Source of the DNA: a phage
Assembly (NCBI GenBank): GCA_014685065.1
Contig: GCA_014685065.1_4092.2
Direction: 5' to 3' (one strand)
Length of the DNA stretch: 64,000 nt
The translations under genes were made by a program, and so were the position numbers. This document shows, in pieces, positions 27,952-45,600 of the stretch. The notes below the pieces were generated by a model. It searched no databases, had not been told where the DNA came from, and saw only the letters and a list, made by a program, of their open reading frames with translations. Numbering within the stretch: position 1 is the first letter of the stretch; the number at the start of each line of letters is the position of its first letter.

Positions 27952-28010
27952 TTGCAAAGTATTGGGAAAGGTGTAGAATGTTTTACATCGAGACGGGGGA
28001 TACGCTCCCG
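27952..28010 (+). promoter_or_regulatory. early promoter cassette: TTGCAA-N16-TAGAAT, TACATCG start region, leader hairpin CGGGGGATACGCTCCCG
   Basis: read directly. Confidence 0.55.
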
Positions 28011-28036
28011 ACTCACTTTTAAAAGAGATTAAAACG

Positions 28037-28399
28037 ATGGCGACTCAAATCAATACTATCATGCTTAACCTGGTTTCTTTCCGTGAAGAGATGAAAGATC
28101 TTCCCGCTGAGACTGTACGGATTCACATTGCAGCTTATCGGGAATTGATTGCAATGCTGCCGCTTAAGCGTGAACAGTACGCCGCTACTGCAATGCTGGA
28201 CGCAATGATACATAAGATGATCCAGACTGATTTAACGATGGCTTATCAGTACATGGGCGAAATGTTTGCAGTGTATAGCAAGCCAGTACCAGGAATGGAA
28301 AGTACAGAAGTATTGCACGGCTTAAACTTAAAACAAGATGCATGGGATAATATGCCTCGTTTCCTGGTATGGGCTGACAGCGGCAAGATTTACGAATAA
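28037..28399 (+). CDS. hypothetical protein
   Basis: ORF track; promoter cassette upstream. Confidence 0.6.
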   Translation: MATQINTIMLNLVSFREEMKDLPAETVRIHIAAYRELIAMLPLKREQYAATAMLDAMIHKMIQTDLTMAYQYMGEMFAVYSKPVPGMESTEVLHGLNLKQDAWDNMPRFLVWADSGKIYE

Positions 28400-28413
28400 G
28401 TTTAATAAAGTAC

Positions 28414-28473
28414 TTGCAAACTAAGTTTAAAAGCGTATAATGTTTTACATCAGGTGGGGAATAGTTCCCCACT
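28414..28473 (+). promoter_or_regulatory. early promoter cassette (TTGCAA 28414, TATAAT 28436) + 5' hairpin GTGGGGAATAGTTCCCCAC
   Basis: read directly. Confidence 0.6.
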
Positions 28474-28492
28474 ATATAAGAGGATTAAAAAA

Positions 28493-28732
28493 ATGGCTAA
28501 ATCAAAAATGTTCTTAGGTCACAAAAACAAAACTCAATGGAATGTAAGCCTTTGGATTAATAACGACGAATCATTATACCGGTTGGCCCAGGACTTTATT
28601 GCCGCTAACACTAATCGTAATGATGCGGCCCGTCATATGATGCTATTTTTAGAACAGACTGGACAAGATAAAACACCGGACGGCTTTAAGTATAGCACTA
28701 CTGCGATCCGTGCGGCGATGGTTGGAATGTAA
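28493..28732 (+). CDS. hypothetical protein
   Basis: ATG at 28493 after SD AGAGGA downstream of hairpin. Confidence 0.55.
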   Translation: MAKSKMFLGHKNKTQWNVSLWINNDESLYRLAQDFIAANTNRNDAARHMMLFLEQTGQDKTPDGFKYSTTAIRAAMVGM

Positions 28733-28814
28733 GAGAATAGATTAAAAGTACTATTGCACGGTGATAGTACTTTATAATAGATTTCTTTTATACAACAACG
28801 ATAGGGGTAACAGC

Positions 28815-29081
28815 ATGAATATTATATACTTTGCAACGCGTGAACTTGCTCGGATTGCCGCACGCCAGGACGGGGCGACGTTTAAAGATATGGGCGTACA
28901 ATCTGAACGTGGTAAACGTTGGGCCGTAGTAAAGCAAAGTACAGCCCGATCAATTCAGTACTGGCTATCTGCTTTAAAGCGTCCTGATAGTGTATCGCGT
29001 CGCGTGGTAGAAATAAAGCACGACCGCAAGGGCAACCGCGTTACTGTGTACAGTACTAAAAAGATTGCAGTACTTGAATAA
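28815..29081 (+). CDS. hypothetical protein, paralog of 40786..41181
   Basis: shared FATRE.AR..AR..G.TFKDMG..RWAV and HDRKGNRVTVYS. Confidence 0.55.
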   Translation: MNIIYFATRELARIAARQDGATFKDMGVQSERGKRWAVVKQSTARSIQYWLSALKRPDSVSRRVVEIKHDRKGNRVTVYSTKKIAVLE

Positions 29082-29203
29082 AAGTACTTGACAGTTATCC
29101 GGCTTAGTGAGATAATACTTACAAGCCGGACACAAGGCGATAGCCCATAGGGTGCGGGAGTGTATCTATAGGAAAGTACTAAAAACTATTTTCAAAAAAG
29201 TAC

Positions 29204-29349
29204 TTGCAAACTATGTTTAAAGGCGTATAATGTTTTACATCAGGACGGGGAATGAAATAAGTAACTCCCTGTTAAGTAGTCCAGGAGTAAGACTTACGAA
29301 AAACTCCCCTGATAAAATAGTTTGACAAAGATTTATAAAAGCGTATAAT
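29204..29349 (+). promoter_or_regulatory. duplicated long leader module with two tandem promoters (TTGCAA 29204/TATAAT 29226; TTGACA 29322/TATAAT 29344) flanking a conserved ~80-nt segment
   Basis: near-identical copy at 39531-39700. Confidence 0.5.
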
Positions 29350-29381
29350 ACTTACATCAACTAATGAATGAGGGTTACAAA

Positions 29382-29993
29382 ATGAAAACTATCACTACTA
29401 CTACTTTTGTTATGGCTTTTTCTGAACTGAACGCAGAACAACAAACGGCGGCTATCGAACTGGTTCGGGATCGGGAACGTGCAAGTGAGGATAATTTCTT
29501 TGCTGAGTCAGTACTGGAATACTATAAAGAAACAGTACTGCCAGAATACGGCATAGATGAAGCTGAATTGCAATACAGTGGTTTTTGGTCGCAAGGTGAC
29601 GGTGCATCAATCAGTACTGACCACGTTGACGCTGAGAAGTTTTTACGCAAGGTTAAGGCGTTAACTAAGTATCGCACTATCCGTCACCTGTTGAACGAAG
29701 ATGATTTAGAAATGAGTGTAGAACGTTCCCAATCGCGTTATGCACACGAAAACACGGTAGGCGGTTGCGTTGATACTCGCTACACTGATTTAACTGTAAA
29801 ACAGGCTGCATTAGCTGAGGATCTGGAAAACTTACTGACTGATACTATCCGAGAATTATCTTGTAAGCTGTACCGTGATTTAGAAAATGCTTATGAAGAC
29901 CAGTTTACTACTGAAAACATTGTAGCACTGATTGAGGGTAACGAATATCAATTTAATGTTATCGATGGTGTAGTAGAATCTATCGCATATTAA
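29382..29993 (+). CDS. hypothetical protein (203 aa)
   Basis: ATG at 29382 after SD GAGGG. Confidence 0.6.
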   Translation: MKTITTTTFVMAFSELNAEQQTAAIELVRDRERASEDNFFAESVLEYYKETVLPEYGIDEAELQYSGFWSQGDGASISTDHVDAEKFLRKVKALTKYRTIRHLLNEDDLEMSVERSQSRYAHENTVGGCVDTRYTDLTVKQAALAEDLENLLTDTIRELSCKLYRDLENAYEDQFTTENIVALIEGNEYQFNVIDGVVESIAY

Positions 29994-30010
29994 TTCAGTA
30001 CTGAATCACT

Positions 30011-30030
30011 GGCGGGGAATGGTTCCCGCC
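30011..30030 (+). promoter_or_regulatory. 5'-leader hairpin GGCGGGGAATGGTTCCCGCC
   Basis: hairpin-family member; no clean -10 found upstream. Confidence 0.4.
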
Positions 30031-30051
30031 TATATCCCAGGAGTAAGAGAA

Positions 30052-30288
30052 ATGATCGAACAAATCAAAACTACAACGCCAAACGTAACGGGTACAGTAT
30101 CACACTTCATTGGTGACGATTCGCGGGGCGTTCCTTATTGTGCAGTACATGTAAACCAAAATGGCGACTACTGGCTAACGGTTTACGGTTCTTATTCTTT
30201 CGGGCGTAGTGCACACCAAAAGATCCTGGATAAAGTACAGCCAACGGGTAAAAATATCACCGCTGAGATGTTTTATAAAAAGCACTAA
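30052..30288 (+). CDS. hypothetical protein
   Basis: ATG at 30052 after SD AGGAG. Confidence 0.55.
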   Translation: MIEQIKTTTPNVTGTVSHFIGDDSRGVPYCAVHVNQNGDYWLTVYGSYSFGRSAHQKILDKVQPTGKNITAEMFYKKH

Positions 30289-30295
30289 AAAGTAC

Positions 30296-30354
30296 TTGCA
30301 AAGTAATTAGATTAACGTATAATACTTTATATCGAGAGCGGGAATAGTTCCCGC
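30296..30354 (+). promoter_or_regulatory. early promoter cassette + hairpin GCGGGAATAGTTCCCGC
   Basis: TTGCAA 30296, TATAAT 30318. Confidence 0.6.
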
Positions 30355-30373
30355 CTTTAATGAGGATTATCTA

Positions 30374-30658
30374 ATGAGCAAAGTAATTAATAGTAAAGTA
30401 CTAACTAAAACTTTATCTATAACTGAGTGCACCGATGGTTTTTGGCTGTACGATGAAACGCGTGGCATGAATTTAGCTATGCAGGAGAAAACTGCTGATG
30501 CGGCATATCTTAAAGCACTGGAATACTACCAGAAGCGTTTAAAGGAAGTAGAAAACGATTATAATAACCTGAAAGCGAAAGTAGATCATTTTGTCGGTCA
30601 ATTCGTTGACGATGACGAGGACGGGCACTACTGCGACCGTTGCGGATCTTACAATTGA
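30374..30658 (+). CDS. hypothetical protein
   Basis: ORF track; SD GAGGA. Confidence 0.6.
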   Translation: MSKVINSKVLTKTLSITECTDGFWLYDETRGMNLAMQEKTADAAYLKALEYYQKRLKEVENDYNNLKAKVDHFVGQFVDDDEDGHYCDRCGSYN

Positions 30659-30675
30659 GTACTGAGGATTATCTA

Positions 30676-30879
30676 ATGAGTGATTTAATTGAACGTATCA
30701 AAGAGCTTGAAGAAAAAGAATTGCAGTTGATCGGGTTACGGAATAAAGTATTCCATGATTTAGGTGGCTTCATTAATGCCTGGGATAGTGGCGATCCTGA
30801 TGCGTTACCTGCTAACCGCCAGGCGATGATCAATGATGTGCGTGGTGTCTTTGATTATGTTTTAAAGCAATTAAATTAA
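30676..30879 (+). CDS. hypothetical protein
   Basis: same GAGGATTATCTAATG start context as 30374. Confidence 0.55.
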   Translation: MSDLIERIKELEEKELQLIGLRNKVFHDLGGFINAWDSGDPDALPANRQAMINDVRGVFDYVLKQLN

Positions 30880-30887
30880 AAAAGTAC

Positions 30888-30947
30888 TTGCAATTAGTTT
30901 TTAGTACTGTATAATAGTTTACATCAAGGGGGGAAATGGTTCTCCCC
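30888..30947 (+). promoter_or_regulatory. early promoter cassette + hairpin
   Basis: TTGCAA 30888, TATAAT 30910, GGGGGAAATGGTTCTCCCC. Confidence 0.6.
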
Positions 30948-30966
30948 ACTAATAAGGAGTTTTACA

Positions 30967-31188
30967 ATGGCTAATATCACTACTCTTTCCCAGCTTGAAG
31001 CACTGGTTAAATCTATGCGGGCACATGTTGACAGTATCGGCGTAGAAGATCCGGCTGTATGTTTTTGTGACGAAATAAATGATGATACGCTCGTCATTGC
31101 AGAAGTACAAGACGTTTCTAACTATTCATCGCGTTACACTTGCGGAGTATCAAAGAAAGGTGATTTCTGTTTATATCTTACTAAGTAA
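30967..31188 (+). CDS. hypothetical protein
   Basis: ORF track; SD AAGGAG. Confidence 0.6.
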   Translation: MANITTLSQLEALVKSMRAHVDSIGVEDPAVCFCDEINDDTLVIAEVQDVSNYSSRYTCGVSKKGDFCLYLTK

Positions 31189-31356
31189 TACAGAGGGGAT
31201 CAATTGATCCCCTTTATATTTTTTGTACTGAATCATTTAATAGACGGATCTATGCACCCTGTGGGTTAGTGACTATCTCGTCTTTATGTAAGTATTATGC
31301 CAGTACTGGATGCAGTTGTCAAGACTTTTTTTTCAAATACTTTTATATCAAAGTAC

Positions 31357-31384
31357 TTGATAATAGTTTTTAAATGCGTATAAT
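31357..31384 (+). promoter_or_regulatory. sigma70-like promoter TTGATA-N16-TATAAT
   Basis: read directly. Confidence 0.5.
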
Positions 31385-31434
31385 GTTTTACATCTAATCG
31401 GGAATACTCCCTAGTACTAACAAAGGATATACAA

Positions 31435-31734
31435 ATGAAAACTGCAATCATCGCCCTGGCTTTATCTGTTTCCTCTTTCGCTGTTAACGCTTCCGTTGAT
31501 GTACCGAAAGAAAAATTCATTCAGTGCACTGTTGCAATGACTAACGAGGAAACGGCTGAGATCGTTACCAAATCCCTGGAACTGGCCCCTGCAATGTTTG
31601 CTAATGGCCCGTACCATGAAGAAGATGATCAGGGTAGCACGACCATCTATTACGATGCAAAAAGTAAACGCGGTTCTGTCACTGTAATGGATACAGAGAA
31701 AGTTACATTCACTGGCGTAATTAATTGTTTATAA
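31435..31734 (+). CDS. secreted/periplasmic protein (N-terminal signal peptide)
   Basis: MKTAIIALALSVSSFAVNASVD signal-like N-terminus. Confidence 0.6.
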   Translation: MKTAIIALALSVSSFAVNASVDVPKEKFIQCTVAMTNEETAEIVTKSLELAPAMFANGPYHEEDDQGSTTIYYDAKSKRGSVTVMDTEKVTFTGVINCL

Positions 31735-31751
31735 TATAGTACTGAATCACT

Positions 31752-31779
31752 AGCCCACTATAAGCAGTGGGCTTTTTTG
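31752..31779 (+). terminator. intrinsic terminator AGCCCACT-N6-AGTGGGCT + T6
   Basis: read directly. Confidence 0.7.
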
Positions 31780-31832
31780 TTTTTGTAGTATTGTAGTACT
31801 GGTATACTTTGAAAATAGTTTTAAAAAAGTAG

Positions 31833-31860
31833 TTGACATTACCAGGGAAAAGCGTAGAAT
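31833..31860 (+). promoter_or_regulatory. sigma70-like promoter TTGACA-N16-TAGAAT with ~110-nt leader
   Basis: read directly. Confidence 0.5.
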
Positions 31861-31974
31861 GTATTACATCAAGACGGGGAACATTAAGTAGACCGCCAGT
31901 AAGTCGAATGAAAAACTGGACACGTCAATAAAACTTTGATAAACTAACTTAAACTTTAATTGAGGATTTATAAA

Positions 31975-32457
31975 ATGGCTAATGTAAAATCATTTCTGAA
32001 AGCACTGATTTCTAACGATACTGTTATTGCTGCTGAATTGCTGGCTGACCTGGATAATGATACCATGAAAGCAGTACGCAACAATTTTAACATTGCTTAC
32101 AGTGAAGCGAAAGAACTACAAGCCAAAAAGGTAGCAGAACTGGAAGAACAGAAAAAAGCCCGTGAAGCAGAACTGCAAGCAACAATAGAAAGTATTCAGG
32201 CGGCGGTGTCTGGTTTAGATCTGGAAGTGGTTATTGAAATGGCACATAAAGCCCTGGCGGTTAAGTACGGTGAAGATAAGCCGGAATCTAAGCCTAAAAA
32301 ATGGATTCAAGAACGTGTTACGGTTGTCCTTGATAACGGGGAAGAACATTTGATTCCTGTACGCGGTAACTGCATTGCGGTAGTACTAGATGCAATCAAA
32401 GAAAGCGGTATGACTCGCGAGGAATGGATCGAAGCTCACCGCAAAGTTGAAGCATAA
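31975..32457 (+). CDS. hypothetical protein (alanine/glutamate-rich, likely helical)
   Basis: ATG at 31975 after SD GAGGA. Confidence 0.6.
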   Translation: MANVKSFLKALISNDTVIAAELLADLDNDTMKAVRNNFNIAYSEAKELQAKKVAELEEQKKAREAELQATIESIQAAVSGLDLEVVIEMAHKALAVKYGEDKPESKPKKWIQERVTVVLDNGEEHLIPVRGNCIAVVLDAIKESGMTREEWIEAHRKVEA

Positions 32458-32478
32458 CAATTAAAGTACTGAATCACT

Positions 32479-32505
32479 AGCCCACTTATACAGTGGGCTT
32501 TTTTG
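32479..32505 (+). terminator. intrinsic terminator AGCCCACT-N6-AGTGGGCT + T-run
   Basis: read directly. Confidence 0.7.
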
Positions 32506-32657
32506 TGTCTATAGTATTCCATGCCGTCAGCACCTCATAGAATCGATTCTAACGCATTAAACTGATTATCTGATGCATCGCCCTAGCTGGTGGAGTTAAG
32601 GCCGTTAGAATGCGATTGAGAGTGTTAAAAGTATTTTACAAAAAGTAATAAAAAGTA

Positions 32658-32685
32658 CTTGCACGATTCAGAGATTAGCGTATAA
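32658..32685 (+). promoter_or_regulatory. sigma70-like promoter TTGCAC-N16-TATAAT
   Basis: read directly. Confidence 0.5.
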
Positions 32686-32731
32686 TGTTTTACATCAAGG
32701 CGAAACACCTTAACTAACTGAGGATATAAAG

Positions 32732-32884
32732 ATGAATACTTATGAACTGGATTGTTTCACTATGCAAGTAATGTTAGTATGCAGTAAAAAAGAATGGTCA
32801 TCAAAGGAATTTAAAGCAGTTATTGCATGTTCAAAAAAAGGTAAGTCTATTATTGAAACGGCAGCTATCGTAGATAGTCTTTAA
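32732..32884 (+). CDS. small hypothetical protein (50 aa)
   Basis: hand-translated; SD GAGGA. Confidence 0.4.
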   Translation: MNTYELDCFTMQVMLVCSKKEWSSKEFKAVIACSKKGKSIIETAAIVDSL

Positions 32885-32892
32885 AAAATAGT

Positions 32893-32921
32893 TTGACAAT
32901 AGTTTTAAGTACTGACATAAT
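32893..32921 (+). promoter_or_regulatory. sigma70-like promoter TTGACA-N17-CATAAT
   Basis: read directly. Confidence 0.5.
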
Positions 32922-32954
32922 ACATACATCAACTACTGAATAGGAATCAAAACA

Positions 32955-33182
32955 ATGGCTATCGTAATCACTCGCGTATCTGGTACTACTGGCAATTCTT
33001 CTACTGTTGCTGTAATTACTAATAAGAAAGGTGCGGAATTACATTTTGCAATGAATACCTGGGCGGTGAATGAGTTCGGTCAGTGGGCTAGTGTAGAATA
33101 CATTGAAACCTATCAAGTGCCAACCATTAGCTTAACGGATCTCGGCGTAGATCGTATCTTATGCCTGGATGAATTAAACTAA
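32955..33182 (+). CDS. hypothetical protein
   Basis: ORF track. Confidence 0.55.
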   Translation: MAIVITRVSGTTGNSSTVAVITNKKGAELHFAMNTWAVNEFGQWASVEYIETYQVPTISLTDLGVDRILCLDELN

Positions 33183-33189
33183 AAAGTAC

Positions 33190-33249
33190 TTGCAAAGTAA
33201 ATCGGATAAAGTATAATACATTACATCAAGGGGAGAAATGATTCTCCCC
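33190..33249 (+). promoter_or_regulatory. early promoter cassette + hairpin GGGGAGAAATGATTCTCCCC
   Basis: TTGCAA 33190, TATAAT 33212. Confidence 0.6.
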
Positions 33250-33267
33250 ACTAAGAGGAAACTAAAA

Positions 33268-33411
33268 ATGAAAACTTGTCAATGTGGTAAAAAATCTATC
33301 ACTGGTTTGAAACGGGGCGTTGCTCTTTGTCAGTATCACTATAACGCTCAAGTATGGGGTAAAGAGTGGGCCGACCAGGTGGAAGCAATAAAGAAAGCAA
33401 AAAGTAAGTAA
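33268..33411 (+). CDS. small Cys-rich protein (47 aa; CxCG..C..H zinc-ribbon-like)
   Basis: hand-translated MKTCQCGKK..ALCQYHY; SD AAGAGGAAA. Confidence 0.45.
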   Translation: MKTCQCGKKSITGLKRGVALCQYHYNAQVWGKEWADQVEAIKKAKSK

Positions 33412-33420
33412 AATTATTAT

Positions 33421-33459
33421 CACAGTACTATTGACATAGATTGATAGTACTGGCATAAT
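33421..33459 (+). promoter_or_regulatory. class II promoter: TTGACA-N17-CATAAT with AGTACTAT/ATAGTACT inverted repeat over -35 and spacer
   Basis: read directly. Confidence 0.55.
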
Positions 33460-33492
33460 AGATTTTATCAAGACAACTAAGAGGAAACAAAA

Positions 33493-33705
33493 ATGGCTAT
33501 CATTACAAAAATCAAAGTAAACAATTCACTGGTTAAACTGGAACAAGTGAAAGCGGGTTATAAAGTATCATGGTGCGGAATGTATCGGATGTTCGCAGAT
33601 ATTGACGATGCAATCAAATATTATACTGATACGGTTGCTAACTTTGTTCGTGCTGATGTAGTGATGGCAGTTGCACAACATAAAGCATCAAAGCAAAGTA
33701 AGTAA
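33493..33705 (+). CDS. hypothetical protein
   Basis: ORF track. Confidence 0.55.
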   Translation: MAIITKIKVNNSLVKLEQVKAGYKVSWCGMYRMFADIDDAIKYYTDTVANFVRADVVMAVAQHKASKQSK

Positions 33706-33710
33706 AATTA

Positions 33711-33753: not shown

Positions 33754-33786
33754 AGATTTTATCAAGACAACTAAGAGGAAATTAAA

Positions 33787-39910: not shown

Positions 39911-39918
39911 TAAAATAG

Positions 39919-39978: not shown

Positions 39979-39999
39979 CTAACAAAGAGAGAAATTAAA

Positions 40000-40275
40000 A
40001 TGCGGATTCTACTGACAGCTAACGAAATCGAGCAAGTACTGACTACTAACCTGGAAGACTGGAAACGTGATGCAGATATCCAGGCGGTGCAATGGCTCAA
40101 TGATAAGTTAACGCCGGATGATTTAAGTAAGATTGTAGATCCACAATTCTATGAAGATATTCACGACACGGCTTTAAGCGTCGAGGATGTACTTGATAAG
40201 CACTACATTGATATTGATTTGCAGGTTTACGGTCGTAAAAACTTTATCACTATTCACGACATTTATAATAATTAA
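40000..40275 (+). CDS. hypothetical protein
   Basis: ORF track. Confidence 0.55.
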   Translation: MRILLTANEIEQVLTTNLEDWKRDADIQAVQWLNDKLTPDDLSKIVDPQFYEDIHDTALSVEDVLDKHYIDIDLQVYGRKNFITIHDIYNN

Positions 40276-40278
40276 GTA

Positions 40279-40338
40279 TTGACAAAGTATCTTAGTACTG
40301 TATAATAGTTTACATCAAGGCAGGGGAATGGTTCCCCT
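40279..40338 (+). promoter_or_regulatory. early promoter cassette + hairpin
   Basis: TTGACA 40279, TATAAT 40301, AGGGGAATGGTTCCCCT. Confidence 0.65.
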
Positions 40339-40362
40339 CCTAACTAAAAGAGAGAAATTAAA

Positions 40363-40686
40363 ATGACTATGATCCTTACCCAGAAAGTAGAAATGAAAAT
40401 TGTAACTTCCTTTGACATTAAAGTTAATCGGTGGACTGATAGCCACGGCAATACTTACCACTCATGCTACGTGTCTGCATTGATTGGTGACCGCTGGGAA
40501 GACCTGGGACATGAAACCTTTACTTACGGTTACGGTACACAAGGCGAATACACGGGCTTGGAGATCATTAAAGAAACTGTAATAGGTTTCAACCCGAAAG
40601 AGAAAGTACTACACAGAATTGAGGATGAGATCAACAAAGAAATTACAGTTCGTTACTACGATGTAAAACGTAAGAAAGACATGTAA
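40363..40686 (+). CDS. hypothetical protein
   Basis: ORF track. Confidence 0.55.
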   Translation: MTMILTQKVEMKIVTSFDIKVNRWTDSHGNTYHSCYVSALIGDRWEDLGHETFTYGYGTQGEYTGLEIIKETVIGFNPKEKVLHRIEDEINKEITVRYYDVKRKKDM

Positions 40687-40700
40687 TAGAATCCATTTAA

Positions 40701-40737
40701 AGTACTATTTGACATTGCCCAGATAGTACTTTATAAT
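40701..40737 (+). promoter_or_regulatory. class II promoter with AGTACT inverted repeat
   Basis: TTGACA 40709, N17, TATAAT 40732. Confidence 0.55.
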
Positions 40738-40785
40738 AGACTCTAACTTGTAGTACTAATTAACTTAACTAATAGGATGTACACC

Positions 40786-41181
40786 ATGATTACTAAATTC
40801 TTCGCTACCCGTGAACAAGCTCGCATCGTTGCTCGTGAAGAAGGTGAAACATTTAAAGACATGGGCAAAGATGCACCGAAAGGACAACGCTGGGCGGTAC
40901 AGTTCAAAGAGATCTCTGATATTGTGAATTCACCTGAGCCTGTACTTACTGAAGCAGAACTGAAGAAAGCTCAAGAACTGGCTGAAGTACTGAACGCTCA
41001 AGATGACTTCTTGGAAGGTTCTGATATTGAAGTTACAGTTAACGCAAATGCATGGACTCACGCGGATCACCTGGCAAACCTTAAGCGTCCAAGTGAACTG
41101 ATTCGTAACCAGAAAGAGATCCGTCATGACCGTAAAGGAAACCGTGTAACAGTATACAGTAAACGCCGCCAGGTTATCTAA
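40786..41181 (+). CDS. hypothetical protein, paralog of 28815..29081
   Basis: shared N- and C-terminal motifs. Confidence 0.55.
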   Translation: MITKFFATREQARIVAREEGETFKDMGKDAPKGQRWAVQFKEISDIVNSPEPVLTEAELKKAQELAEVLNAQDDFLEGSDIEVTVNANAWTHADHLANLKRPSELIRNQKEIRHDRKGNRVTVYSKRRQVI

Positions 41182-41204
41182 TAACTTTGCAGTACTAACA
41201 ACAC

Positions 41205-41229
41205 GGCGGGAATAGTTCCCGCCTTTTTT
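41205..41229 (+). terminator. intrinsic terminator: hairpin GGCGGGAATAGTTCCCGCC (same family as 5' hairpins) + T6
   Basis: read directly. Confidence 0.65.
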
Positions 41230-41244
41230 ATAGGATAAACTAAA

Positions 41245-41499
41245 ATGATGAAGGTACAACTATCTAAAGATAATATCTTGCGGGTACACTATAAAGCACC
41301 ACAGAGAATCATCACAAAGGCCGTACAGCTTGCTAATGAGTTTATTAATGGTAGTCTATTACCCAGGAAGTTAAGCAACGGGAAACTACGTGTTATCGAT
41401 GTAGACACTAACAATAGAATAGTAATTGAGAGTACTGGAAAAATTAATCTATATGAACACCAACAATACAATAAAAAAATAAAACTAATATCACGTTGA
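41245..41499 (+). CDS. hypothetical protein
   Basis: ORF track. Confidence 0.5.
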   Translation: MMKVQLSKDNILRVHYKAPQRIITKAVQLANEFINGSLLPRKLSNGKLRVIDVDTNNRIVIESTGKINLYEHQQYNKKIKLISR

Positions 41500-41555
41500 C
41501 AGTACTCAATTGTTTTAGTATTATGTATCTATACCAACACAGAGAGAGAAACAAA

Positions 41556-41774
41556 ATGAAATTATCTAAAATCGAAAAGAAAACTATTGATGAAGCAGTG
41601 AAGCACGGTTATACCTTTCGTAATGATTCACACTTCACCAGTTTTCAACAGGGAAACCGTACCATCAAAAAACTCATTGATAAAGGTTTACTCACTAAGG
41701 TTGATAACGGGAACGGTGTAGAATATCAACCGACAGAAGACGCATTATCACTAAAGAAATATTCTATTATCTAA
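41556..41774 (+). CDS. hypothetical protein
   Basis: ATG at 41556 after a TTGACAGTACTCAAWTGTTTTAGTA leader repeat. Confidence 0.5.
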   Translation: MKLSKIEKKTIDEAVKHGYTFRNDSHFTSFQQGNRTIKKLIDKGLLTKVDNGNGVEYQPTEDALSLKKYSII

Positions 41775-41831
41775 TTGACAGTACTCAAATGTTTTAGTAC
41801 TATGTACGCATACCAACACGGGGAAAACAAA

Positions 41832-42074
41832 ATGATTACTTTAGAAAAACGTATCAAAGAGACTACAACGCTGGTGGAACTGTTAACCGTTCTTAAATGC
41901 CGGGTAACTCCATTCAGTACACCGGACTTTATCAACATGGTGGACGTTAACGGTCGCTATCGTATTGCGGTCGAACAAGGTACGGCAAAAGTATTCAGTA
42001 CTAAAAATACGCGTGAAGTATTCCACGCAGTAAGTACGAAAAAAGTAGTTGCCATTGATAGTAAAGTACTGTAA
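41832..42074 (+). CDS. hypothetical protein
   Basis: ATG at 41832; same upstream repeat as 41556 gene. Confidence 0.5.
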   Translation: MITLEKRIKETTTLVELLTVLKCRVTPFSTPDFINMVDVNGRYRIAVEQGTAKVFSTKNTREVFHAVSTKKVVAIDSKVL

Positions 42075-42105
42075 TATAGTTTCATTAACTCAAGGAGTCA
42101 ACACA

Positions 42106-42690
42106 ATGCGTAACTATACTAAATTCATCCGTTCACTTCATGCAATGGAAACCAACAAAGAGATCCTTTCAGCTTGTCGGTTAGCTGGACTGGAGATCGT
42201 CGGTGCGGGTTCTTCCCGTATTGTATTCGCTTTAAATGATCGGTTAGTGATTAAGGTCGCGAATTGTGATGCGGGTGTAGAACAAAATGAAACTGAATGT
42301 AAGGTATGGAATTTTTTAGATTATGACCGTCCGCACCTTAAACAGTTCTTTGCCAAGGTGCATATGCATTTATGCGATCCTGATAATCTGTTTATTGTTA
42401 TGGATCGTTTGAGTACTGCAAGCAAAGGCAGTGTAAAGCACGTAACCGCATGTAATGAGTTAAAGTACAATATTAAACGTAACACTATTGAACGCCATCA
42501 CCATTTCGCTGATGCTCTCAATCACGTTGATGATACATTATCCACACTAACGATAAGAGATATCAGAAAACAGAATATCGGCCAGGATCGCAACGGCTTG
42601 ATTAAAGTACTTGATTACGGTTTAACCCGCAATATCTGGAATCAGTACTATAAAAAACGTGATGTTAACGCGATAACTATAACACGATAA
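42106..42690 (+). CDS. protein-kinase-like protein
   Basis: Gly loop VGAGSSRIV, VIKVA lysine, RDIRKQNIG catalytic-loop-like, VLDYG DFG-like. Confidence 0.45.
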   Translation: MRNYTKFIRSLHAMETNKEILSACRLAGLEIVGAGSSRIVFALNDRLVIKVANCDAGVEQNETECKVWNFLDYDRPHLKQFFAKVHMHLCDPDNLFIVMDRLSTASKGSVKHVTACNELKYNIKRNTIERHHHFADALNHVDDTLSTLTIRDIRKQNIGQDRNGLIKVLDYGLTRNIWNQYYKKRDVNAITITR

Positions 42691-42704
42691 AAAAGATTAA
42701 AAAA

Positions 42705-42737
42705 GGGATTGACTCCAGTCAGTCCCTTTGCTATTAT
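42705..42737 (+). terminator. terminator/promoter dual element, copy 6
   Basis: GGGATTGAC-TCCA-GTCAGTCCC + TATTAT. Confidence 0.55.
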
Positions 42738-42831
42738 ATATTCATTGAGAGATAACTCACTGACCCATAGGGTGCGGAAGTGTATCTATTATATAAGTAT
42801 TCAGTACTGAAAACTATTTGATAAAAAGTAC

Positions 42832-42891
42832 TTGCAAACTATCTTAATGAGCGTATAATGTTTTATATCGAGAGGGGGAAATGGTTCTCCC
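42832..42891 (+). promoter_or_regulatory. early promoter cassette + hairpin
   Basis: TTGCAA 42832, TATAAT 42854. Confidence 0.6.
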
Positions 42892-42914
42892 TGGTACTAA
42901 AAGGAATCAAAACG

Positions 42915-43136
42915 ATGGCTACTATGACCTGCGTTCACGCTTCAAATCTTCTGAATGATGCAGCATTTAAAGCAGGTGAAGAATATCAATGCTATCGGGA
43001 TGAAAATAAAAAAGTTTTCGTCGTTGATGCTAACGGTTTCCATATTGAATTGCAATCCGGCTTCACTGGTTTAAATGGTAAATCAGTATGGGGCGTTAAT
43101 GATGATAATGGTCTTTATCACTTTATCCGTAATTAA
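42915..43136 (+). CDS. hypothetical protein
   Basis: ATG after SD AAAGGAA. Confidence 0.55.
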   Translation: MATMTCVHASNLLNDAAFKAGEEYQCYRDENKKVFVVDANGFHIELQSGFTGLNGKSVWGVNDDNGLYHFIRN

Positions 43137-43139
43137 GTA

Positions 43140-43199
43140 TTGACAAAGTATATCAGTACTGTATAATAGTTTACATCAAGGGGAGAATAGTTCTCCCCA
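43140..43199 (+). promoter_or_regulatory. early promoter cassette + hairpin
   Basis: TTGACA 43140, TATAAT 43162, GGGGAGAATAGTTCTCCCC. Confidence 0.65.
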
Positions 43200-43220
43200 C
43201 CAATAAAAGGAAACAAAATT

Positions 43221-43493
43221 ATGTCTAGCTACTCCGCTACTATGATCATTAAAGATATGAACGGTAATCCTACTTCTGCTGGTGGATCATTTGGAAACAT
43301 TAACTTAGATGGTCGGTTATCAATTGAATCAGCCATCAATGCAGCGAAAGAAGTTTTTAAGAATGAATGCACTGTAAGTAAGCTGGATTATATGGGATTC
43401 GCTATCGAGAAAACTAATCGTTTTGTGAACTACAAAAATCCACTGATGATTGATACTAACCTGAAAGCTAACGAAGTGGAATACTTATTATGA
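43221..43493 (+). CDS. hypothetical protein
   Basis: ORF track. Confidence 0.55.
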   Translation: MSSYSATMIIKDMNGNPTSAGGSFGNINLDGRLSIESAINAAKEVFKNECTVSKLDYMGFAIEKTNRFVNYKNPLMIDTNLKANEVEYLL

Positions 43494-43681
43494 CAGTTGA
43501 AGAAGTTAAAAAAGTACTGGCAGTACTACGCTATCATAATCATTGTAAGGTGAAGAATGATCCTGATTATGTTGATTCATCCCTGGAGGAAGACACCTTA
43601 AACGCGATAAGCTATATGCAAACATTAGCAAAGCGTATGACCGAAAAGAATAGGCCGGACTATATCGGAAATAAAATTTAA
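43490..43681 (+). CDS. hypothetical protein
   Basis: ATGA overlap. Confidence 0.5.
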   Translation: MTVEEVKKVLAVLRYHNHCKVKNDPDYVDSSLEEDTLNAISYMQTLAKRMTEKNRPDYIGNKI

Positions 43682-43687
43682 AAAGTA

Positions 43688-43748
43688 CTTGCATTGTAGT
43701 TAGATTAACGTATAATGTTTTATATCGAGAGGGGGAAATGGTTTCCCC
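43688..43748 (+). promoter_or_regulatory. early promoter cassette + hairpin
   Basis: TTGCAT 43688, TATAAT 43710, AGGGGGAAATGGTTTCCCCT. Confidence 0.6.
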
Positions 43749-43768
43749 TCAAGTCCAGGAGATACACC

Positions 43769-44032
43769 ATGAACACTATCGAAATCACTATCAATGCACA
43801 CGTATACGACAACGTAGTACTGCAAACTACTATGACCGCTAATGATACCAGTACTTTGCGGAATATCGTTATTAGTTCAGTATGTGCCGCTATCGGTGAT
43901 GTTGCCCTTGAAAATGCAAAACACGTCAACGATGCCTTTACGATGTGCAAACGTGATAACTCAAAACATATCATCTGCGAAGGTTACGGCGGTGTAGAAT
44001 ACAATGTTTATATGAAAAAAGTACTTGCATAA
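43769..44032 (+). CDS. hypothetical protein
   Basis: ATG after SD AGGAG. Confidence 0.55.
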   Translation: MNTIEITINAHVYDNVVLQTTMTANDTSTLRNIVISSVCAAIGDVALENAKHVNDAFTMCKRDNSKHIICEGYGGVEYNVYMKKVLA

Positions 44033-44081
44033 TAACTAAAACAAAGTATAATGTTTTGCATAGGGGGAGATATCCTCCCCC
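44025..44081 (+). promoter_or_regulatory. early promoter cassette + hairpin GGGGGAGATATCCTCCCCC (altered loop, pairing kept)
   Basis: TTGCAT 44025, TATAAT 44047. Confidence 0.6.
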
Positions 44082-44100
44082 ACTAATAAGGAGTACTAAA

Positions 44101-44325
44101 ATGGCTAACTTTGATGAACTGATGCGGGAAGTAGCTACCCTGGCAGAAGAGAAGAAATCATTCGATTCTATATATAACACCGCTTACAGTGATTCAGTAC
44201 TGGCATGTACTCAGGATCAAAAAGATGAACTGATCGCCACCTATCATGAAGCATGGAAGTATTACCGCCAATGGGAGAAAGAAGAAAGCGAGTCTACCAT
44301 CAACGGCATCAATAATCTAATCTAA
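44101..44325 (+). CDS. hypothetical protein
   Basis: ATG after SD AAGGAG. Confidence 0.55.
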   Translation: MANFDELMREVATLAEEKKSFDSIYNTAYSDSVLACTQDQKDELIATYHEAWKYYRQWEKEESESTINGINNLI

Positions 44326-44399
44326 AGTTTTATTTCAGTACTATTGACAATGCGTGATAGTACTGATGTGATAACTTTACTAACTAAAGGGGAAACATA

Positions 44400-44657
44400 A
44401 TGGAACAGTTCACACAATATCGGGTAAATCCTCAAGCTATGGCCTACGTAGAAGACCATAAAACGTTACCAGTACTAACACCAATTAAAGGCCATATCTA
44501 TCGTGCTATGCAGTGGAATAACGCCTATAATGGCTATAAAGCGGTATCCGCTGCAATGTACTTAGGGGATGGCGAATGGTTTGATCCAAATAATCCTGGT
44601 GCACTCGATAGTACTGAAAAAATGACATGGGCCGACTATATCGAAGATATCTCATAA
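44400..44657 (+). CDS. hypothetical protein
   Basis: ORF track. Confidence 0.55.
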   Translation: MEQFTQYRVNPQAMAYVEDHKTLPVLTPIKGHIYRAMQWNNAYNGYKAVSAAMYLGDGEWFDPNNPGALDSTEKMTWADYIEDIS

Positions 44658-44664
44658 AAACTAT

Positions 44665-44726
44665 TTGACAGTACTACAAGATAATGTATAATGTTTTACA
44701 TAGAGCGGGGGAATAGTTCTCCCGCA
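44665..44726 (+). promoter_or_regulatory. early promoter cassette + hairpin
   Basis: TTGACA 44665, TATAAT 44687, GCGGGGGAATAGTTCTCCCGC. Confidence 0.6.
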
Positions 44727-44745
44727 CCTTTAGGAGTAAAACATT

Positions 44746-44946
44746 ATGTCAATCGCTAACGAATTGGTTGCAGTACTGAATGAAGCAAAAGCCAACTGCA
44801 TCGATGTACAGATAAAAGAGCTTGGCAATGGCTTGATCGGCTGTACTTGTTCCGTGCAAACGGCTACCGATTATCGGGAAGTGGAATCACTCGAATCACT
44901 GGTACGGTATATTAAAATCCTGGTAGAAGATTGGAGAATCATCTAA
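44746..44946 (+). CDS. hypothetical protein
   Basis: ORF track; SD AGGAG. Confidence 0.55.
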   Translation: MSIANELVAVLNEAKANCIDVQIKELGNGLIGCTCSVQTATDYREVESLESLVRYIKILVEDWRII

Positions 44947-44965
44947 CAAAAAAGAATAAAAAAAA

Positions 44966-44999
44966 GGGATTGACTCCGGTCAGTCCCTTTGCTATTATA
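44966..44999 (+). terminator. terminator/promoter dual element, copy 7
   Basis: GGGATTGAC-TCCG-GTCAGTCCC + TATTAT. Confidence 0.55.
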
Positions 45000-45122
45000 T
45001 ACGCATAGACAAAAACTAGCCCACAGGGTGCAGAGAAGTATCTGTAAGATAGTTAATAACGGTGAGTAACTATCTGCTGGTGGATGTAATTCCAGTACTC
45101 AAAACTATTTCAAAAAAAGTAT

Positions 45123-45150
45123 TGACAAAGTATATCAGTACTGCGATAAT
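45123..45150 (+). promoter_or_regulatory. sigma70-like promoter TTGACA-N16-GATAAT
   Basis: read directly. Confidence 0.5.
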
Positions 45151-45203
45151 GTATCTCGTAGGGCGGCGATGGTGCGACGGCCCACAAAGTTAGGAGATTC
45201 AAA

Positions 45204-45530
45204 ATGAGTACTTCAATCGCTATCGTTAAAGCTTTCATCCGTACCAATTTCGACCGCATTACTGTTGATGGTAATGATCGGGAAGTAGAATACTCTTTCA
45301 TTGTTGCACAAACCGCAAACGGTGCACGCTATATCTTAAACGATAGTGAAGCTAACCACTACTTCTATAATAAAGGATTACACTACATCCCTAGCGAAGT
45401 AGTCTACAGTAAGATGAATAAGCTGGTAGACAAGATTAACGCAAAGGGTACTATAGATTTACAGTACTGGACCGAAACAGATCCAGAATACGGCTCGTAT
45501 CGTTACCTGAATCCAGGAATTAAAATGTAA
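45204..45530 (+). CDS. hypothetical protein
   Basis: ORF track; SD AGGAG. Confidence 0.6.
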   Translation: MSTSIAIVKAFIRTNFDRITVDGNDREVEYSFIVAQTANGARYILNDSEANHYFYNKGLHYIPSEVVYSKMNKLVDKINAKGTIDLQYWTETDPEYGSYRYLNPGIKM

Positions 45531-45537
45531 AAAGTAC

Positions 45538-45600
45538 TTGCATAGTACTTAGAATCAAGTATAATGTTTTACATAGAGAGGGGGAAATGGTTCTCCCTCC
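45538..45600 (+). promoter_or_regulatory. early promoter cassette + hairpin
   Basis: TTGCAT 45538, TATAAT 45560. Confidence 0.6.

What the first reader, a model, noticed from the sequence alone, without database searches (positions are those of the whole stretch)
27952..45600. About 20 copies of an early promoter fused to a 5'-proximal palindromic hairpin that abuts the SD, with compensatory base changes
Across 28-46 kb most genes are preceded by AAAGTACTTGCAA/TTGACA-N16-TATAAT-N4-TACATCAAG, then a perfect inverted repeat (GGGGAGAATAGTTCTCCCC; variants GCGGGAATAGTTCCCGC, GGGGAAACGGTTTCCCC, GGGGGAGATATCCTCCCCC), then ACTAAGAGGAAA and ATG. Stem bases change between copies but pairing is preserved, so the structure is selected. 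Its position a few nt from the likely 5' end and directly before the SD suggests an mRNA-stabilising 5' hairpin, a translational operator, or a DNA operator for a dimeric regulator acting on the whole early regulon. At 41205 the same hairpin plus a T-run acts as a terminator.
Basis: partly seen in the sequence, partly recalled or inferred. Interest (0 to 1): 0.7.

Follow-up and report, generated by a model that had tools for sequence, protein, structure and literature searches.

The report
Early-promoter cassettes with leader hairpins
The repeat is real: 19 genes in the terminal repeat of a 121Q-like giant coliphage carry the same strong host-type promoter, a short RNA hairpin and a ribosome-binding site, which makes it a relative of the known "PeSL" promoter/stem-loop cassettes of T4-like phages, not a new kind of element.

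Summary
The window comes from a 121Q-like jumbo phage (Asteriusvirus). Positions about 26,357-46,450 correspond to its roughly 20-kb direct terminal repeat.

That repeat holds 19 full cassettes, and one more lies at 1,244. Each consists of:
- TTGCAA or TTGACA, a 16-nt spacer, then TATAAT
- the motif TTTACATCAAG
- a 6-9 bp stem with a purine-rich 5' arm and a pyrimidine-rich 3' arm
- an A-rich linker, the SD and ATG

Hairpins follow 19 of 27 motif promoters, against about 1% by chance. Pairing is selected on the sense strand:
- all 7 core pairs show double changes
- internal mismatches are G·U 16 to A·C 1
- loop length varies from 3 to 6 nt

These points argue against a DNA operator. The absence of a U-run argues against termination.

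The same layout occurs in Klebsiella (Alcyoneusvirus) and Serratia (Eneladusvirus) jumbo phages. It also occurs in 140-150 kb myoviruses (Vequintavirinae, Phapecoctavirus).

It matches the PeSL cassettes of RB49/phi1 in its parts, in its start-site motif and in indels bounded by cassettes. It differs in that the stem-loop lies inside the transcript.

The most likely role is a cis-acting leader hairpin that keeps the SD open and slows decay. This is unproven. "Most genes" is overstated: about 2 in 5 carry a full cassette.

The parts
26357..46450 (+). Region equivalent to the direct terminal repeat of Asteriusvirus genomes, collapsed to one copy here. It holds all cassettes of the finding.
   Evidence: The restriction-confirmed left end of fEgEco12 (position 1) aligns to window 26357, and its repeat end (20,993) aligns to about 46,450 (PMC13070987).
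27952..28039 (+). Cassette: TTGCAA-16-TAGAAT, hairpin 27994-28010 (CGGGGG/CUCCCG, one G·U), ATG 28037
   Evidence: orthologues carry different stems
28414..28495 (+). Cassette: TTGCAA-16-TATAAT, hairpin 28453-28473 (GGUGGGGAA uag UUCCCCACU), ATG 28493
30296..30376 (+). Cassette: hairpin 30338-30354 (GCGGGAA uag UUCCCGC), ATG 30374
30888..30969 (+). Cassette: hairpin 30928-30947 (GGGGGGAA augg UUCUCCCC, G·U), ATG 30967
33190..33270 (+). Cassette: hairpin 33230-33249 (GGGGAGAA auga UUCUCCCC), ATG 33268
34902..34982 (+). Cassette: hairpin 34943-34961 (GGGGGGAA ugg UUCUCCCC, G·U), ATG 34980
35499..35580 (+). Cassette: hairpin 35540-35558 (AGGGGAAA cgg UUUCCCCU), ATG 35578
35934..36017 (+). Cassette: hairpin 35974-35992 (GGGGAGAA uag UUCUCCCC), ATG 36015. 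Together with the next cassette it flanks a gene that 121Q lacks.
36206..36284 (+). Cassette: hairpin 36246-36264 (GGGGAGAA uag UUCUCCCC), ATG 36282. The UE-S1 orthologue has GGGAAGUA acag UACUUCCC.
38052..38130 (+). Cassette: hairpin 38092-38110, ATG 38128
38674..38753 (+). Cassette: hairpin 38714-38733, ATG 38751
39920..40002 (+). Cassette: hairpin 39960-39978 (GUGGGGAA uag UUCCCCAC), ATG 40000
40279..40365 (+). Cassette: hairpin 40322-40338 (AGGGGAA ugg UUCCCCU), ATG 40363
42832..42917 (+). Cassette: hairpin 42873-42892 (AGGGGGAA augg UUCUCCCU, G·U), ATG 42915
43140..43223 (+). Cassette: hairpin 43180-43198, ATG 43221
43689..43771 (+). Cassette: hairpin 43729-43750 (GAGGGGGAA augg UUUCCCCUC), ATG 43769. 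It bounds a gene absent from 121Q.
44025..44103 (+). Cassette: TTGCAT-16-TATAAT, hairpin 44063-44081 (GGGGGAG auauc CUCCCCC), ATG 44101
44665..44748 (+). Cassette: hairpin 44705-44725 (GCGGGGGAA uag UUCUCCCGC), ATG 44746
45538..45622 (+). Cassette: hairpin 45578-45599 (GAGGGGGAA augg UUCUCCCUC), ATG 45620
1244..1321 (+). The only full cassette outside the terminal-repeat region: TTGACA-16-TATAAT, hairpin 1281-1301 (GGGGAUGA acuuc UCAUCCCU), ATG 1319
31357..31437 (+). Same promoter with a decayed hairpin (GGGA auac UCCC). The orthologues in UE-S1 and SHEFM2K keep AGGGGGAG cgg UUCCCCCU.
30011..30030 (+). Same hairpin type without a promoter or T-run. It lies between two genes, 5 nt before an SD, and follows the motif AGTACTGAATCACT.
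41205..41231 (+). Same hairpin type (GGCGGGAA uag UUCCCGCC) followed by TTTTTT: terminator-like, after ORF 40786-41181
29204..29321 (+). Same promoter driving a conserved structured leader of about 80 nt instead of the hairpin. A second consensus promoter follows at 29322. A twin lies at 39534-39651 and a short form at 31833-31975.
39398..39439 (+). Terminator/promoter composite: the stem-loop AAAGGGAUUGAC uccg GUCAGUCCCUUU holds the -35, followed by TATTAT. This is the classical PeSL layout. Other copies lie at 35359, 42702, 44963, 3005, 4289 and 5702.

Best explanation
The repeats are PeSL-type early-gene cassettes of a 121Q-like jumbo phage. They are packed into the direct terminal repeat, presumably the first DNA to enter the cell.

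Each cassette gives one small gene three things: a near-consensus host sigma-70 promoter, a short leader and an SD. The leader probably starts at the A of the conserved ATCAAG.

The palindrome works as RNA. Within about 5 nt of the start, the purine-rich initial transcript (GGGGAGAA and variants) pairs with a following pyrimidine-rich arm. This forms a stable stem-loop of -11 to -16 kcal/mol that ends 17-24 nt before the AUG.

I take it to be a cis-acting leader element. It locks the only G/C-rich part of the leader into a local helix, so the A-rich SD region stays open whatever gene or upstream read-through RNA is attached. Together with the bound ribosome, it leaves little naked leader for RNase E or 3' exonucleases. 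This would raise and standardise the output of immediate-early mRNAs.

Because the roughly 100-bp cassette is repeated, it also serves as homology for gain, loss and exchange of genes.

Shown here: the promoter consensus, the position, RNA-sense selection of pairing, the free SD, the absence of a U-run, the spread across phage groups, and cassette-bounded indels.

Inferred, not shown: the start site, and the effect on stability or translation.
For: **Real and non-random**
- Motif enrichment.
- Hairpins follow 19 of 27 motif promoters, against about 1% by chance.

**Pairing is selected on the sense strand**
- All 7 core pairs have double changes, and 97.4% of cells are paired.
- Orthologous sites keep a hairpin with different stems. 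Examples: GGGGAGAA/UUCUCCCC against GGGAAGUA/UACUUCCC, and GAGGGGGAA against GCGGGGGAA with a matching change in the 3' arm.
- Internal mismatches are G·U 16 to A·C 1.

**Geometry**
- The -10 to stem distance is mostly 10-15 nt.
- The stem to ATG distance is 17-24 nt.
- The SD is unpaired in all 14 folds.

**Not a terminator**
- None of the 19 has a U-run.
- The phage does place T-runs after hairpins where ends are expected: 41205, 31752, 32479 and the seven composites.

**Conserved layout with unrelated stem sequences**
- Klebsiella phage Muenster, an Alcyoneusvirus.
- Serratia phage BF, an Eneladusvirus, and a 109-kb contig.
- Vequintavirinae and Phapecoctavirus.

**Context**
- The region equals the terminal repeat.
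- Relatives use host RNA polymerase and RpoD-like early promoters (PMC7318152, PMC5259590).

**Cassette-bounded indels against 121Q**
- 35934/36206, 43689/44025 and 29090/29175.

**Background, from my own knowledge**
- 5' stem-loops are known stabilisers: the ompA leader and the T7 gene 10 leader.
Against: - No start site has been mapped.
- With +1 at the A of ATCAAG, 1-6 nt (median 5) stay unpaired at the 5' end. From my own knowledge, ompA-type protection needs about 4 or fewer.
- RNase E readily bypasses simple stem-loops when scanning (PMC9943677).
- In RB49, homologous cassettes hold the G-run/C-run stem-loop inside the -35/-10 spacer, outside their own transcript. If the stem-loop has one function across all PeSLs, that function cannot be protection of the 5' end.
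- The published test of a phi1/RB49 stem-loop showed reduced downstream lacZ expression, which the authors read as termination (PMC2839356).
- Pairing alone does not explain the invariant polarity, purine-rich arm first in 55 of 55 hairpins.
- Other promoters in the same region do without a leader hairpin.
Confidence: 0.45

Rival explanations
1. Read-through attenuator or 3'-end element, which is the published PeSL model. The stem-loop acts on transcripts coming from the upstream gene. It either stops RNA polymerase or blocks 3' exonucleases, so that expression does not pile up along the row of strong promoters. Its place relative to its own promoter would then be incidental.
For: - Stem-loops of the same G-run/C-run type sit at various places in PeSLs. 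A phi1/RB49 stem-loop cut lacZ expression as strongly as rrnB T1 (PMC2839356).
- RB49 copies lie in the promoter spacer.
- The window uses the same hairpin type between genes without a promoter (30011) and with a T-run (41205).
- Other window promoters carry stem-loops over the -35 or -10.
Against: - None of the 19 has a U-run, so intrinsic termination should be weak.
- The hairpin would equally cut the cassette's own transcript.
- Separate terminators with T-runs punctuate the region, with several cassettes between them.
- The tight spacing to the -10 and to the ATG is not needed for this role.
Confidence: 0.2
2. RNA operator for a trans-acting factor. A phage or host protein or nuclease recognises the G-run/C-run stem next to the SD. 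It then switches the whole immediate-early set off, or on, after infection, in the manner of T4 RegA or RegB.
For: - One shared element sits next to the SD of about 20 co-timed genes.
- The base of the stem is conserved (GGG...CCC), and the polarity is invariant.
- The spacing to the ATG is tight.
Against: - Loops (UAG, AUGG, AUGA, CGG, CAC, ACAUC, GUAC and others) and inner stems are not conserved.
- GGAG is absent from many copies.
- The stems (6-10 bp) are too short for RNase III.
- No RNA-binding protein was recognised among 20 terminal-repeat proteins scanned. The hits were DksA/TraR, GNAT, a ParE/RelE-like toxin and a weak kinase match.
Confidence: 0.15
3. DNA-level element. The palindrome would be an operator for a dimeric DNA-binding regulator, or a cruciform or hairpin used to start recombination between cassettes.
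For: - Most copies are perfect palindromes.
- Cassette-bounded indels occur.
- Crossovers were mapped in or near PeSL stem-loops (PMC2839356).
Against: - The arm spacing varies from 3 to 6 nt.
- Stem sequences are unrelated between lineages.
- Mismatches are strand-asymmetric, G·T 16 to A·C 1.
- A far better candidate for a protein-bound DNA site flanks the promoter hexamers: AGTACT, 248 copies against 21 expected.
Confidence: 0.07

Closest known systems
PeSL (promoter-early stem-loop) cassettes of T4-like phages RB49/phi1, T4/PST and KVP40/nt-1 (Arbiol et al. 2010, PMC2839356; Comeau et al. 2014, PMC4122927)
   Same: - An AT-rich upstream region, a near-consensus sigma-70 promoter, a G-run/C-run stem-loop with G-T pairs, then the SD and ATG.
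- Dozens of copies before small orphan early genes in a plastic region.
- Indels between close relatives bounded by cassettes.
- The window's seven terminator/promoter composites have the classical layout.
- The start-site motif CATAAT-N6/7-ATCAAGAC(G/A)A is shared with RB49.
   Different: - In the 19 copies of the finding the stem-loop begins 10-15 nt after the -10, so it lies inside the cassette's own transcript. It has no U-run.
- In RB49 it mostly fills the -35/-10 spacer or overlaps the -10, and it is described as a terminator. The paper lists a minor subclass 'downstream of the -10' but treats it as lying before the start site.
- The host phages here are Rak2-like jumbo phages, and the cassettes fill the terminal repeat.
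- blastn found no T4-like match to the cassette.
5'-terminal stabilising stem-loops (E. coli ompA leader; T7 gene 10 leader) - from my own knowledge
   Same: A stable hairpin near the 5' end of an mRNA, upstream of an accessible SD.
   Different: - Those hairpins sit within about 0-4 nt of the 5' end and were shown to prolong half-life.
- Here the predicted single-stranded 5' tail is 1-6 nt (median 5), and nothing has been measured.
Pre-early region in the terminal repeat of phage T5 - from my own knowledge
   Same: A long direct terminal repeat that carries the first-expressed genes under strong host-type promoters.
   Different: - No homology was tested.
- As far as I know, T5 is not known for a repeated leader hairpin.
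Engineered leader insulators such as RiboJ, a ribozyme plus hairpin placed before the RBS - from my own knowledge
   Same: A local hairpin just upstream of the SD that makes expression independent of what lies upstream.
   Different: - It is synthetic and includes a self-cleaving ribozyme.
- It is an analogy of function only.

Membership tests
PeSL cassette | Sigma-70-type early promoter with an AT-rich upstream region | tested here: met
   TTGCAA or TTGACA, 16 nt, TATAAT, preceded by an A-rich stretch, in all 20 copies.
PeSL cassette | Adjacent stable stem-loop, often a G-run followed by a C-run, with G-T pairs | tested here: met
   Stems of 6-9 bp in the window (7-10 bp, once 12, in other lineages), -11 to -16 kcal/mol, purine-rich arm first in 55 of 55, with G·U pairs present.
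PeSL cassette | SD and start codon of the downstream gene at the 3' end | tested here: met
   The SD core lies 5-11 nt and the ATG 17-26 nt after the stem.
PeSL cassette | Many copies clustered in a plastic region of small orphan genes | tested here: met
   19 copies in about 20 kb, and 1 in the other 44 kb. The genes are mostly hypothetical.
PeSL cassette | Insertions, deletions and replacements between close relatives are bounded by cassettes | tested here: met
   Breakpoints against 121Q fall at 29090/29175, 36020/36194, 38666, 43739/44016 and 45114/45175. Twin cassettes flank the extra gene 36015-36197. Weak point: intergenic DNA here consists mostly of cassettes.
PeSL cassette | Stem-loop placed upstream of or inside the promoter, acting as a terminator for upstream transcription | tested here: not met
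   In the 19 copies it starts 10-15 nt after the -10 and lacks a U-run. The layout is met only by the seven composites. Terminator activity itself cannot be tested here.
PeSL cassette | Formation of mini-circles by recombination between flanking cassettes | not testable with these tools
   Needs inverse PCR on infected cells.
Intrinsic (Rho-independent) terminator | G+C-rich hairpin followed directly by a U-run | tested here: not met
   The tails are ACUAAGAGG, CCUAAC, GGUAAUAAGG and similar. Only 41205 (and 31192) has the T-run.
5'-terminal mRNA-stabilising hairpin (ompA type) | Stem-loop within about 4 nt of the 5' end | tested here: inconclusive
   The predicted +1 (the A of ATCAAG, 7-8 nt after the -10) leaves 1-6 unpaired nt, median 5. 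In some lineages the stem starts only 10 nt after the -10. The start site is not mapped.
5'-terminal mRNA-stabilising hairpin (ompA type) | Removing the hairpin shortens mRNA half-life | not testable with these tools
   Needs a rifampicin chase with reporter constructs.
Operator for a dimeric DNA-binding regulator | Conserved half-site sequence at fixed spacing, recognised in duplex DNA | tested here: not met
   Loops are 3, 4, 5 and 6 nt in 25, 14, 14 and 2 unique hairpins. Stems are unrelated between lineages. The mismatch asymmetry is G·T 16 to A·C 1.
Lambdoid nut/boxB-type antitermination hairpin | Conserved loop sequence bound by an N-like protein, with a boxA partner | tested here: not met
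   26 different loop sequences, no Rfam match, and no second conserved box.
RNase III processing site / T4 RegB target | About two helical turns of duplex (RNase III); an exposed GGAG (RegB) | tested here: not met
   Stems are 6-10 bp, once 12. GGAG is absent from the GUGGGGAA, GCGGGAA and AGGGGAAA variants, and is paired where it is present.

The most novel reading that the evidence does not exclude
The leader hairpin is a shared RNA handle that defines an immediate-early regulon across several unrelated groups of large enterobacterial phages. These are Asteriusvirus, Alcyoneusvirus, Eneladusvirus, Vequintavirinae and Phapecoctavirus. A still unknown phage or host factor would read the G-run/C-run stem next to the SD to time the shut-off, or the protection, of all these mRNAs at once. 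The cassette itself would move genes between phage families.
Probability: 0.15. Interest if true: 0.7.

Novelty: new variant of a known kind. Interest (0 to 1): 0.42.

Why it matters
Rak2/121Q-like jumbo phages are under study for therapy, yet their gene control is almost undescribed. The genome papers I could search mention only RpoD-like promoters, or nothing at all (PMC5259590, PMC3622015, PMC11895373, PMC13070987).

This result does four things:
- It places their immediate-early genes in the terminal repeat.
- It shows how those genes are wired.
- It links that wiring to the PeSL cassettes of T4-like phages.
- It shows the same cassette design, and sometimes nearly the same sequence, in phage families that are otherwise unrelated.

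If the leader hairpin proves to raise or standardise expression, it is a ready-made, naturally diversified set of strong promoter and leader parts for E. coli. It would also give a handle on how orphan early genes are swapped among phages.

Tried and rejected
- **Rfam.** No match at gathering threshold on the whole window. At E<=1 on 26-46.5 kb there were only two chance-level hits elsewhere and none at the hairpins.
- **tRNA/tmRNA scan.** None found.
- **MAFFT alignments.** Alignments of whole cassettes (A1) and of 19-mers with three odd members (A2) put gaps inconsistently with the structure. I used an ungapped set of 33 instead (A3).
- **First mismatch count.** It allowed outer extensions and spurious hairpins, and gave G·T 21+2 against A·C 8+5. 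I replaced it with a count of internal mismatches flanked by two Watson-Crick pairs on each side.
- **Folding z-scores.** For single leaders they are only -0.6 to -2.8, because dinucleotide shuffles keep the G-runs and C-runs. They are weak one by one.
- **Small ORF from ATG in the loops (AUGG, AUGA).** Not general, since most loops are UAG, UGG or CGG.
- **RNase E scanning block.** The literature says simple stem-loops are bypassed (PMC9943677).
- **RNA-binding regulator among terminal-repeat proteins.** None was recognised by Pfam in the 20 proteins scanned.
- **Literature on transcript mapping or leader hairpins in Asteriusvirus, RaK2, rV5 or PA5oct.** Nothing relevant beyond lists of predicted promoters.
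- **Not used.** The large protein-homology and structure tools, because the question concerns non-coding DNA.

Full report
**Source of the window.** Megablast of 30-38 kb finds Asteriusvirus jumbo coliphages. Phage 121Q matches at 93%, SHEFM2K at 90%, and G17, UE-S1 and others also match. The matches are mosaic, with 50-76% coverage in 6-12 pieces.

The restriction-confirmed left genome end of fEgEco12 aligns to window 26357. The end of its 20,993-bp direct terminal repeat aligns to about 46,450 (PMC13070987). The stretch in the finding is therefore the terminal repeat, collapsed here to one copy. In Klebsiella phage Muenster the homologous stretch is annotated as a terminal repeat as well.

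**The observation.** TATAAT-N4-TACATCAAG with up to 3 mismatches occurs 35 times against 8.1 +/- 3.2 expected. Almost all matches are on the + strand between 26.7 and 45.6 kb.

Extraction of the copies shows a cassette of about 85 bp:
- A-rich DNA, then (AAAGTAC)TTGCAA, TTGACA or TTGCAT
- always 16 nt, then TATAAT
- (G/A)nTTTACAT(C/A/G)(A/G)AG
- a stem of 6-9 bp with a loop of 3-5 nt
- an A-rich linker, the SD and ATG

There are 19 full copies in the finding's range and one at 1244-1321. Two copies of the promoter have a decayed hairpin. Three drive a longer structured leader instead.

A hairpin meeting fixed criteria follows 19 of 27 motif promoters, against 1.1-1.6% at random or shuffled sites (P about 2e-31).

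A crude gene count gives about 49 genes in the region (53 are annotated in 121Q). Full cassettes therefore precede about two genes in five, not most of them.

**Is pairing selected, and at what level?** On 33 distinct 19-mers from five lineages, the 7 core pairs are 97.4% paired. All 7 show double changes, and covariation is 0.80 against 0.29 in shuffles and at most 0.27 with slid partners.

These sequences were chosen as hairpins, so the cleaner evidence comes from orthology. Before the same gene, 121Q, UE-S1 and SHEFM2K carry different but always paired stems:
- GGGGAGAA/UUCUCCCC against GGGAAGUA/UACUUCCC
- GAGGGGGAA/UUUCCCCUC against GCGGGGGAA/UUCUCCCGC
- GGGGGGAA/UUCUCCCC against AGGGAGAA/UUCUCCCU

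Some of this variation is exchange of whole cassettes and not point mutation, because the same variants recur at other sites.

Internal mismatches flanked by Watson-Crick pairs are G·T 16 to A·C 1 on the + strand. They fall at about seven different positions or contexts, so there are fewer independent events than 16.

Loop length varies from 3 to 6 nt, and 26 different loops occur.

These facts fit an RNA, or at least a sense-strand, hairpin. They do not fit a duplex-DNA operator with two half-sites.

**Geometry.** MFE folds of 14 leaders give -11 to -15.7 kcal/mol and leave the SD unpaired every time. The z-scores are modest (-0.6 to -2.8), because shuffles keep the G-runs and C-runs.

The conserved A of ATCAAG lies 7-8 nt after the -10. 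It also lies there in RB49 promoters that share CATAAT-N6/7-ATCAAGAC. I take it as +1, which leaves 1-6 (median 5) unpaired 5' nt.

Across lineages the stem-to-ATG distance (17-24 nt, sd 1.6-2.8) is tighter than the -10-to-stem distance (9-24 nt, sd 5-7).

None of the 19 has a U-run. The same hairpin type with TTTTTT at 41205 scores as a terminator, and so do other T-run hairpins. A promoter-less copy sits between genes at 30011.

**Spread.** The layout recurs with unrelated stem sequences in several groups:
- Klebsiella phage Muenster and an IMG/VR RaK2-type contig: GGGGAUACA/UGUAUCCCC, GGGAAUGAA/UUCAUUCCC, AGAGAUUCCA/UGGAAUCUCU
- Serratia phage BF and its relatives: GGGUAAGC/GCUUACCC, GAUUAGGG/CCUUAAUC
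- A 109-kb contig: GGGGGAA/UUCCCCC, eight copies
- Vequintavirinae A73 and A7_1, and Phapecoctavirus nepoznato

In A73 a whole module (promoter, structured leader, second promoter, hairpin) is about 89% identical to the window. That points to exchange between phage families.

**What is known.** Arbiol et al. (PMC2839356) and Comeau et al. (PMC4122927) described PeSLs in T4-like phages. These are sigma-70-like early promoters with an AT-rich upstream region, a stem-loop of poly-G followed by poly-C with G-T pairs, and the SD and ATG. They are repeated in hyperplastic regions before orphan genes, and they mediate indels and mini-circles. The papers distinguish five subclasses by stem-loop position, most often in the spacer or over the -10, and read the stem-loop as a terminator or attenuator.

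I read RB49 directly. TTGACA-GGGGATCaccGATCCCC-TATAAT is typical, and a few copies have the stem-loop after the -10.

The window also contains the classical layout:
- Seven composites in which the stem-loop holds the -35 and a T-run precedes the -10
- Promoters with AGTACT-based stem-loops over the -35

Indels against 121Q are bounded by cassettes. Twin cassettes at 35934 and 36206 flank a gene that 121Q lacks.

Papers on CBB, RaK2, Sharanji, fEgEco12, rV5 and PA5oct list predicted promoters at most. None mentions a leader hairpin.

**Mechanism.** The hairpin is transcribed from its own promoter, is selected in the RNA sense, carries no U-run and leaves the SD free. I therefore favour a cis-acting leader element that keeps the ribosome-binding site open in any context and reduces decay.

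This is inference, and four points weigh against it:
- The 5' tail is probably too long for classical 5'-end protection.
- RNase E steps over simple stem-loops (PMC9943677).
- RB49 keeps its stem-loop outside the transcript.
- The invariant polarity, purine-rich arm first in 55 of 55, is unexplained.

The main rival is the PeSL attenuator model. It unifies all stem-loop positions, but it fits poorly with the missing U-run and with the presence of dedicated terminators. A trans-acting RNA operator is not excluded. A DNA operator is unlikely.

**Verdict.** The feature is real and under selection. It is a variant of a known kind of cassette in phage groups where it had not been described. Its function is still open.

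Noticed in passing
whole window; densest at 26,000-46,500: The palindrome AGTACT occurs 248 times against 20.7 +/- 4.5 expected. The next most common palindromic hexamer has 77 copies. It is enriched in coding DNA in all three frames (2.8/kb) and more so in non-coding DNA (8.1/kb). It abuts the -35 (AAAGTACTTGCAA) or the -10 (CAGTACTG-TATAAT), forms terminator stems, and also occurs in Klebsiella phage Muenster promoters. It is a genome-wide DNA-level signal of unknown meaning.
   Followed up: partly
window 26357 and about 46450: These positions correspond to the ends of the roughly 20-kb direct terminal repeat of Asteriusvirus, by alignment to the restriction-confirmed termini of fEgEco12. 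The window therefore comes from an assembly in which the repeat is collapsed or internal.
   Followed up: yes
window 29239-29321 and 39569-39651 (long form); 31868-31950 (short form): A conserved structured leader or small RNA of about 80 nt is transcribed from cassette promoters and followed at once by a second consensus promoter. Its conserved blocks are GACGGGG, UAAGUAG and GUAAGnCnnAnGAAAA. The outer stem AUCAG/CUGAU covaries to AUCAA/UUGAU. It is present in 121Q, UE-S1, SHEFM2K, fEgEco12 and Vequintavirinae A73, and in diverged form in Muenster. There is no Rfam match.
   Followed up: partly
window 35359, 39398, 42702, 44963 (terminal repeat); 3005, 4289, 5702: In these terminator/promoter composites the stem-loop AAAGGGAUUGAC-uccg-GUCAGUCCCUUU contains the -35, and a T-run leads into the -10. 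Inside the terminal repeat they drive about 60 ORF-free nt holding AGCCCACAGGGTGC-N5-TGTATCTAT, which is also conserved in Muenster. Outside the repeat they sit directly before genes.
   Followed up: partly
window 26357-28030: An ORF-free stretch of about 1.7 kb lies next to the genome end. It has a perfect TTGACA-16-TATAAT promoter at 26731 and strong predicted structure just downstream. It is also unannotated in 121Q and fEgEco12. The related phage PA5oct has highly expressed non-coding RNAs in its terminal repeat (PMC7318152).
   Followed up: no
L004 (phage A73) 5891-6090; L027 (nepoznato); L028 (A7_1): Unrelated 140-150 kb myoviruses carry the same cassette, in part nearly identical in sequence: 89% over the promoter, hairpin and SD in A73. 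This implies exchange of early-gene modules between phage families.
   Followed up: partly
L029 (RB49) against window 33467, 33761, 37079, 31868, 3049: The start-site motif CATAAT-N6/7-ATCAAGAC(G/A)A is shared between RB49 PeSLs and window promoters, even though blastn finds no similarity between the cassettes.
   Followed up: partly
window 37371-37628, 37692-38048, 41245-41499, 42049-42690: Terminal-repeat genes with Pfam matches are a DksA/TraR-type zinc finger, a GNAT acetyltransferase, a ParE/RelE-like toxin domain and a weak protein-kinase match. All are plausible host-takeover functions.
   Followed up: no
window 15286-19804 (- strand) and 9389, 10517: A family of terminators, GCCAGTAC-nnn-GTACTGGC followed by TTTCTT, lies after the minus-strand genes. 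It too is built around (A)GTAC(T).
   Followed up: no
window about 25,300-26,100 and 46,500-64,000: Long tandem arrays of paralogous ORFs of about 60-85 aa without promoters of their own flank the terminal repeat on both sides. SHEFM2K annotates them as PHROG 11711 and PHROG 4148.
   Followed up: no
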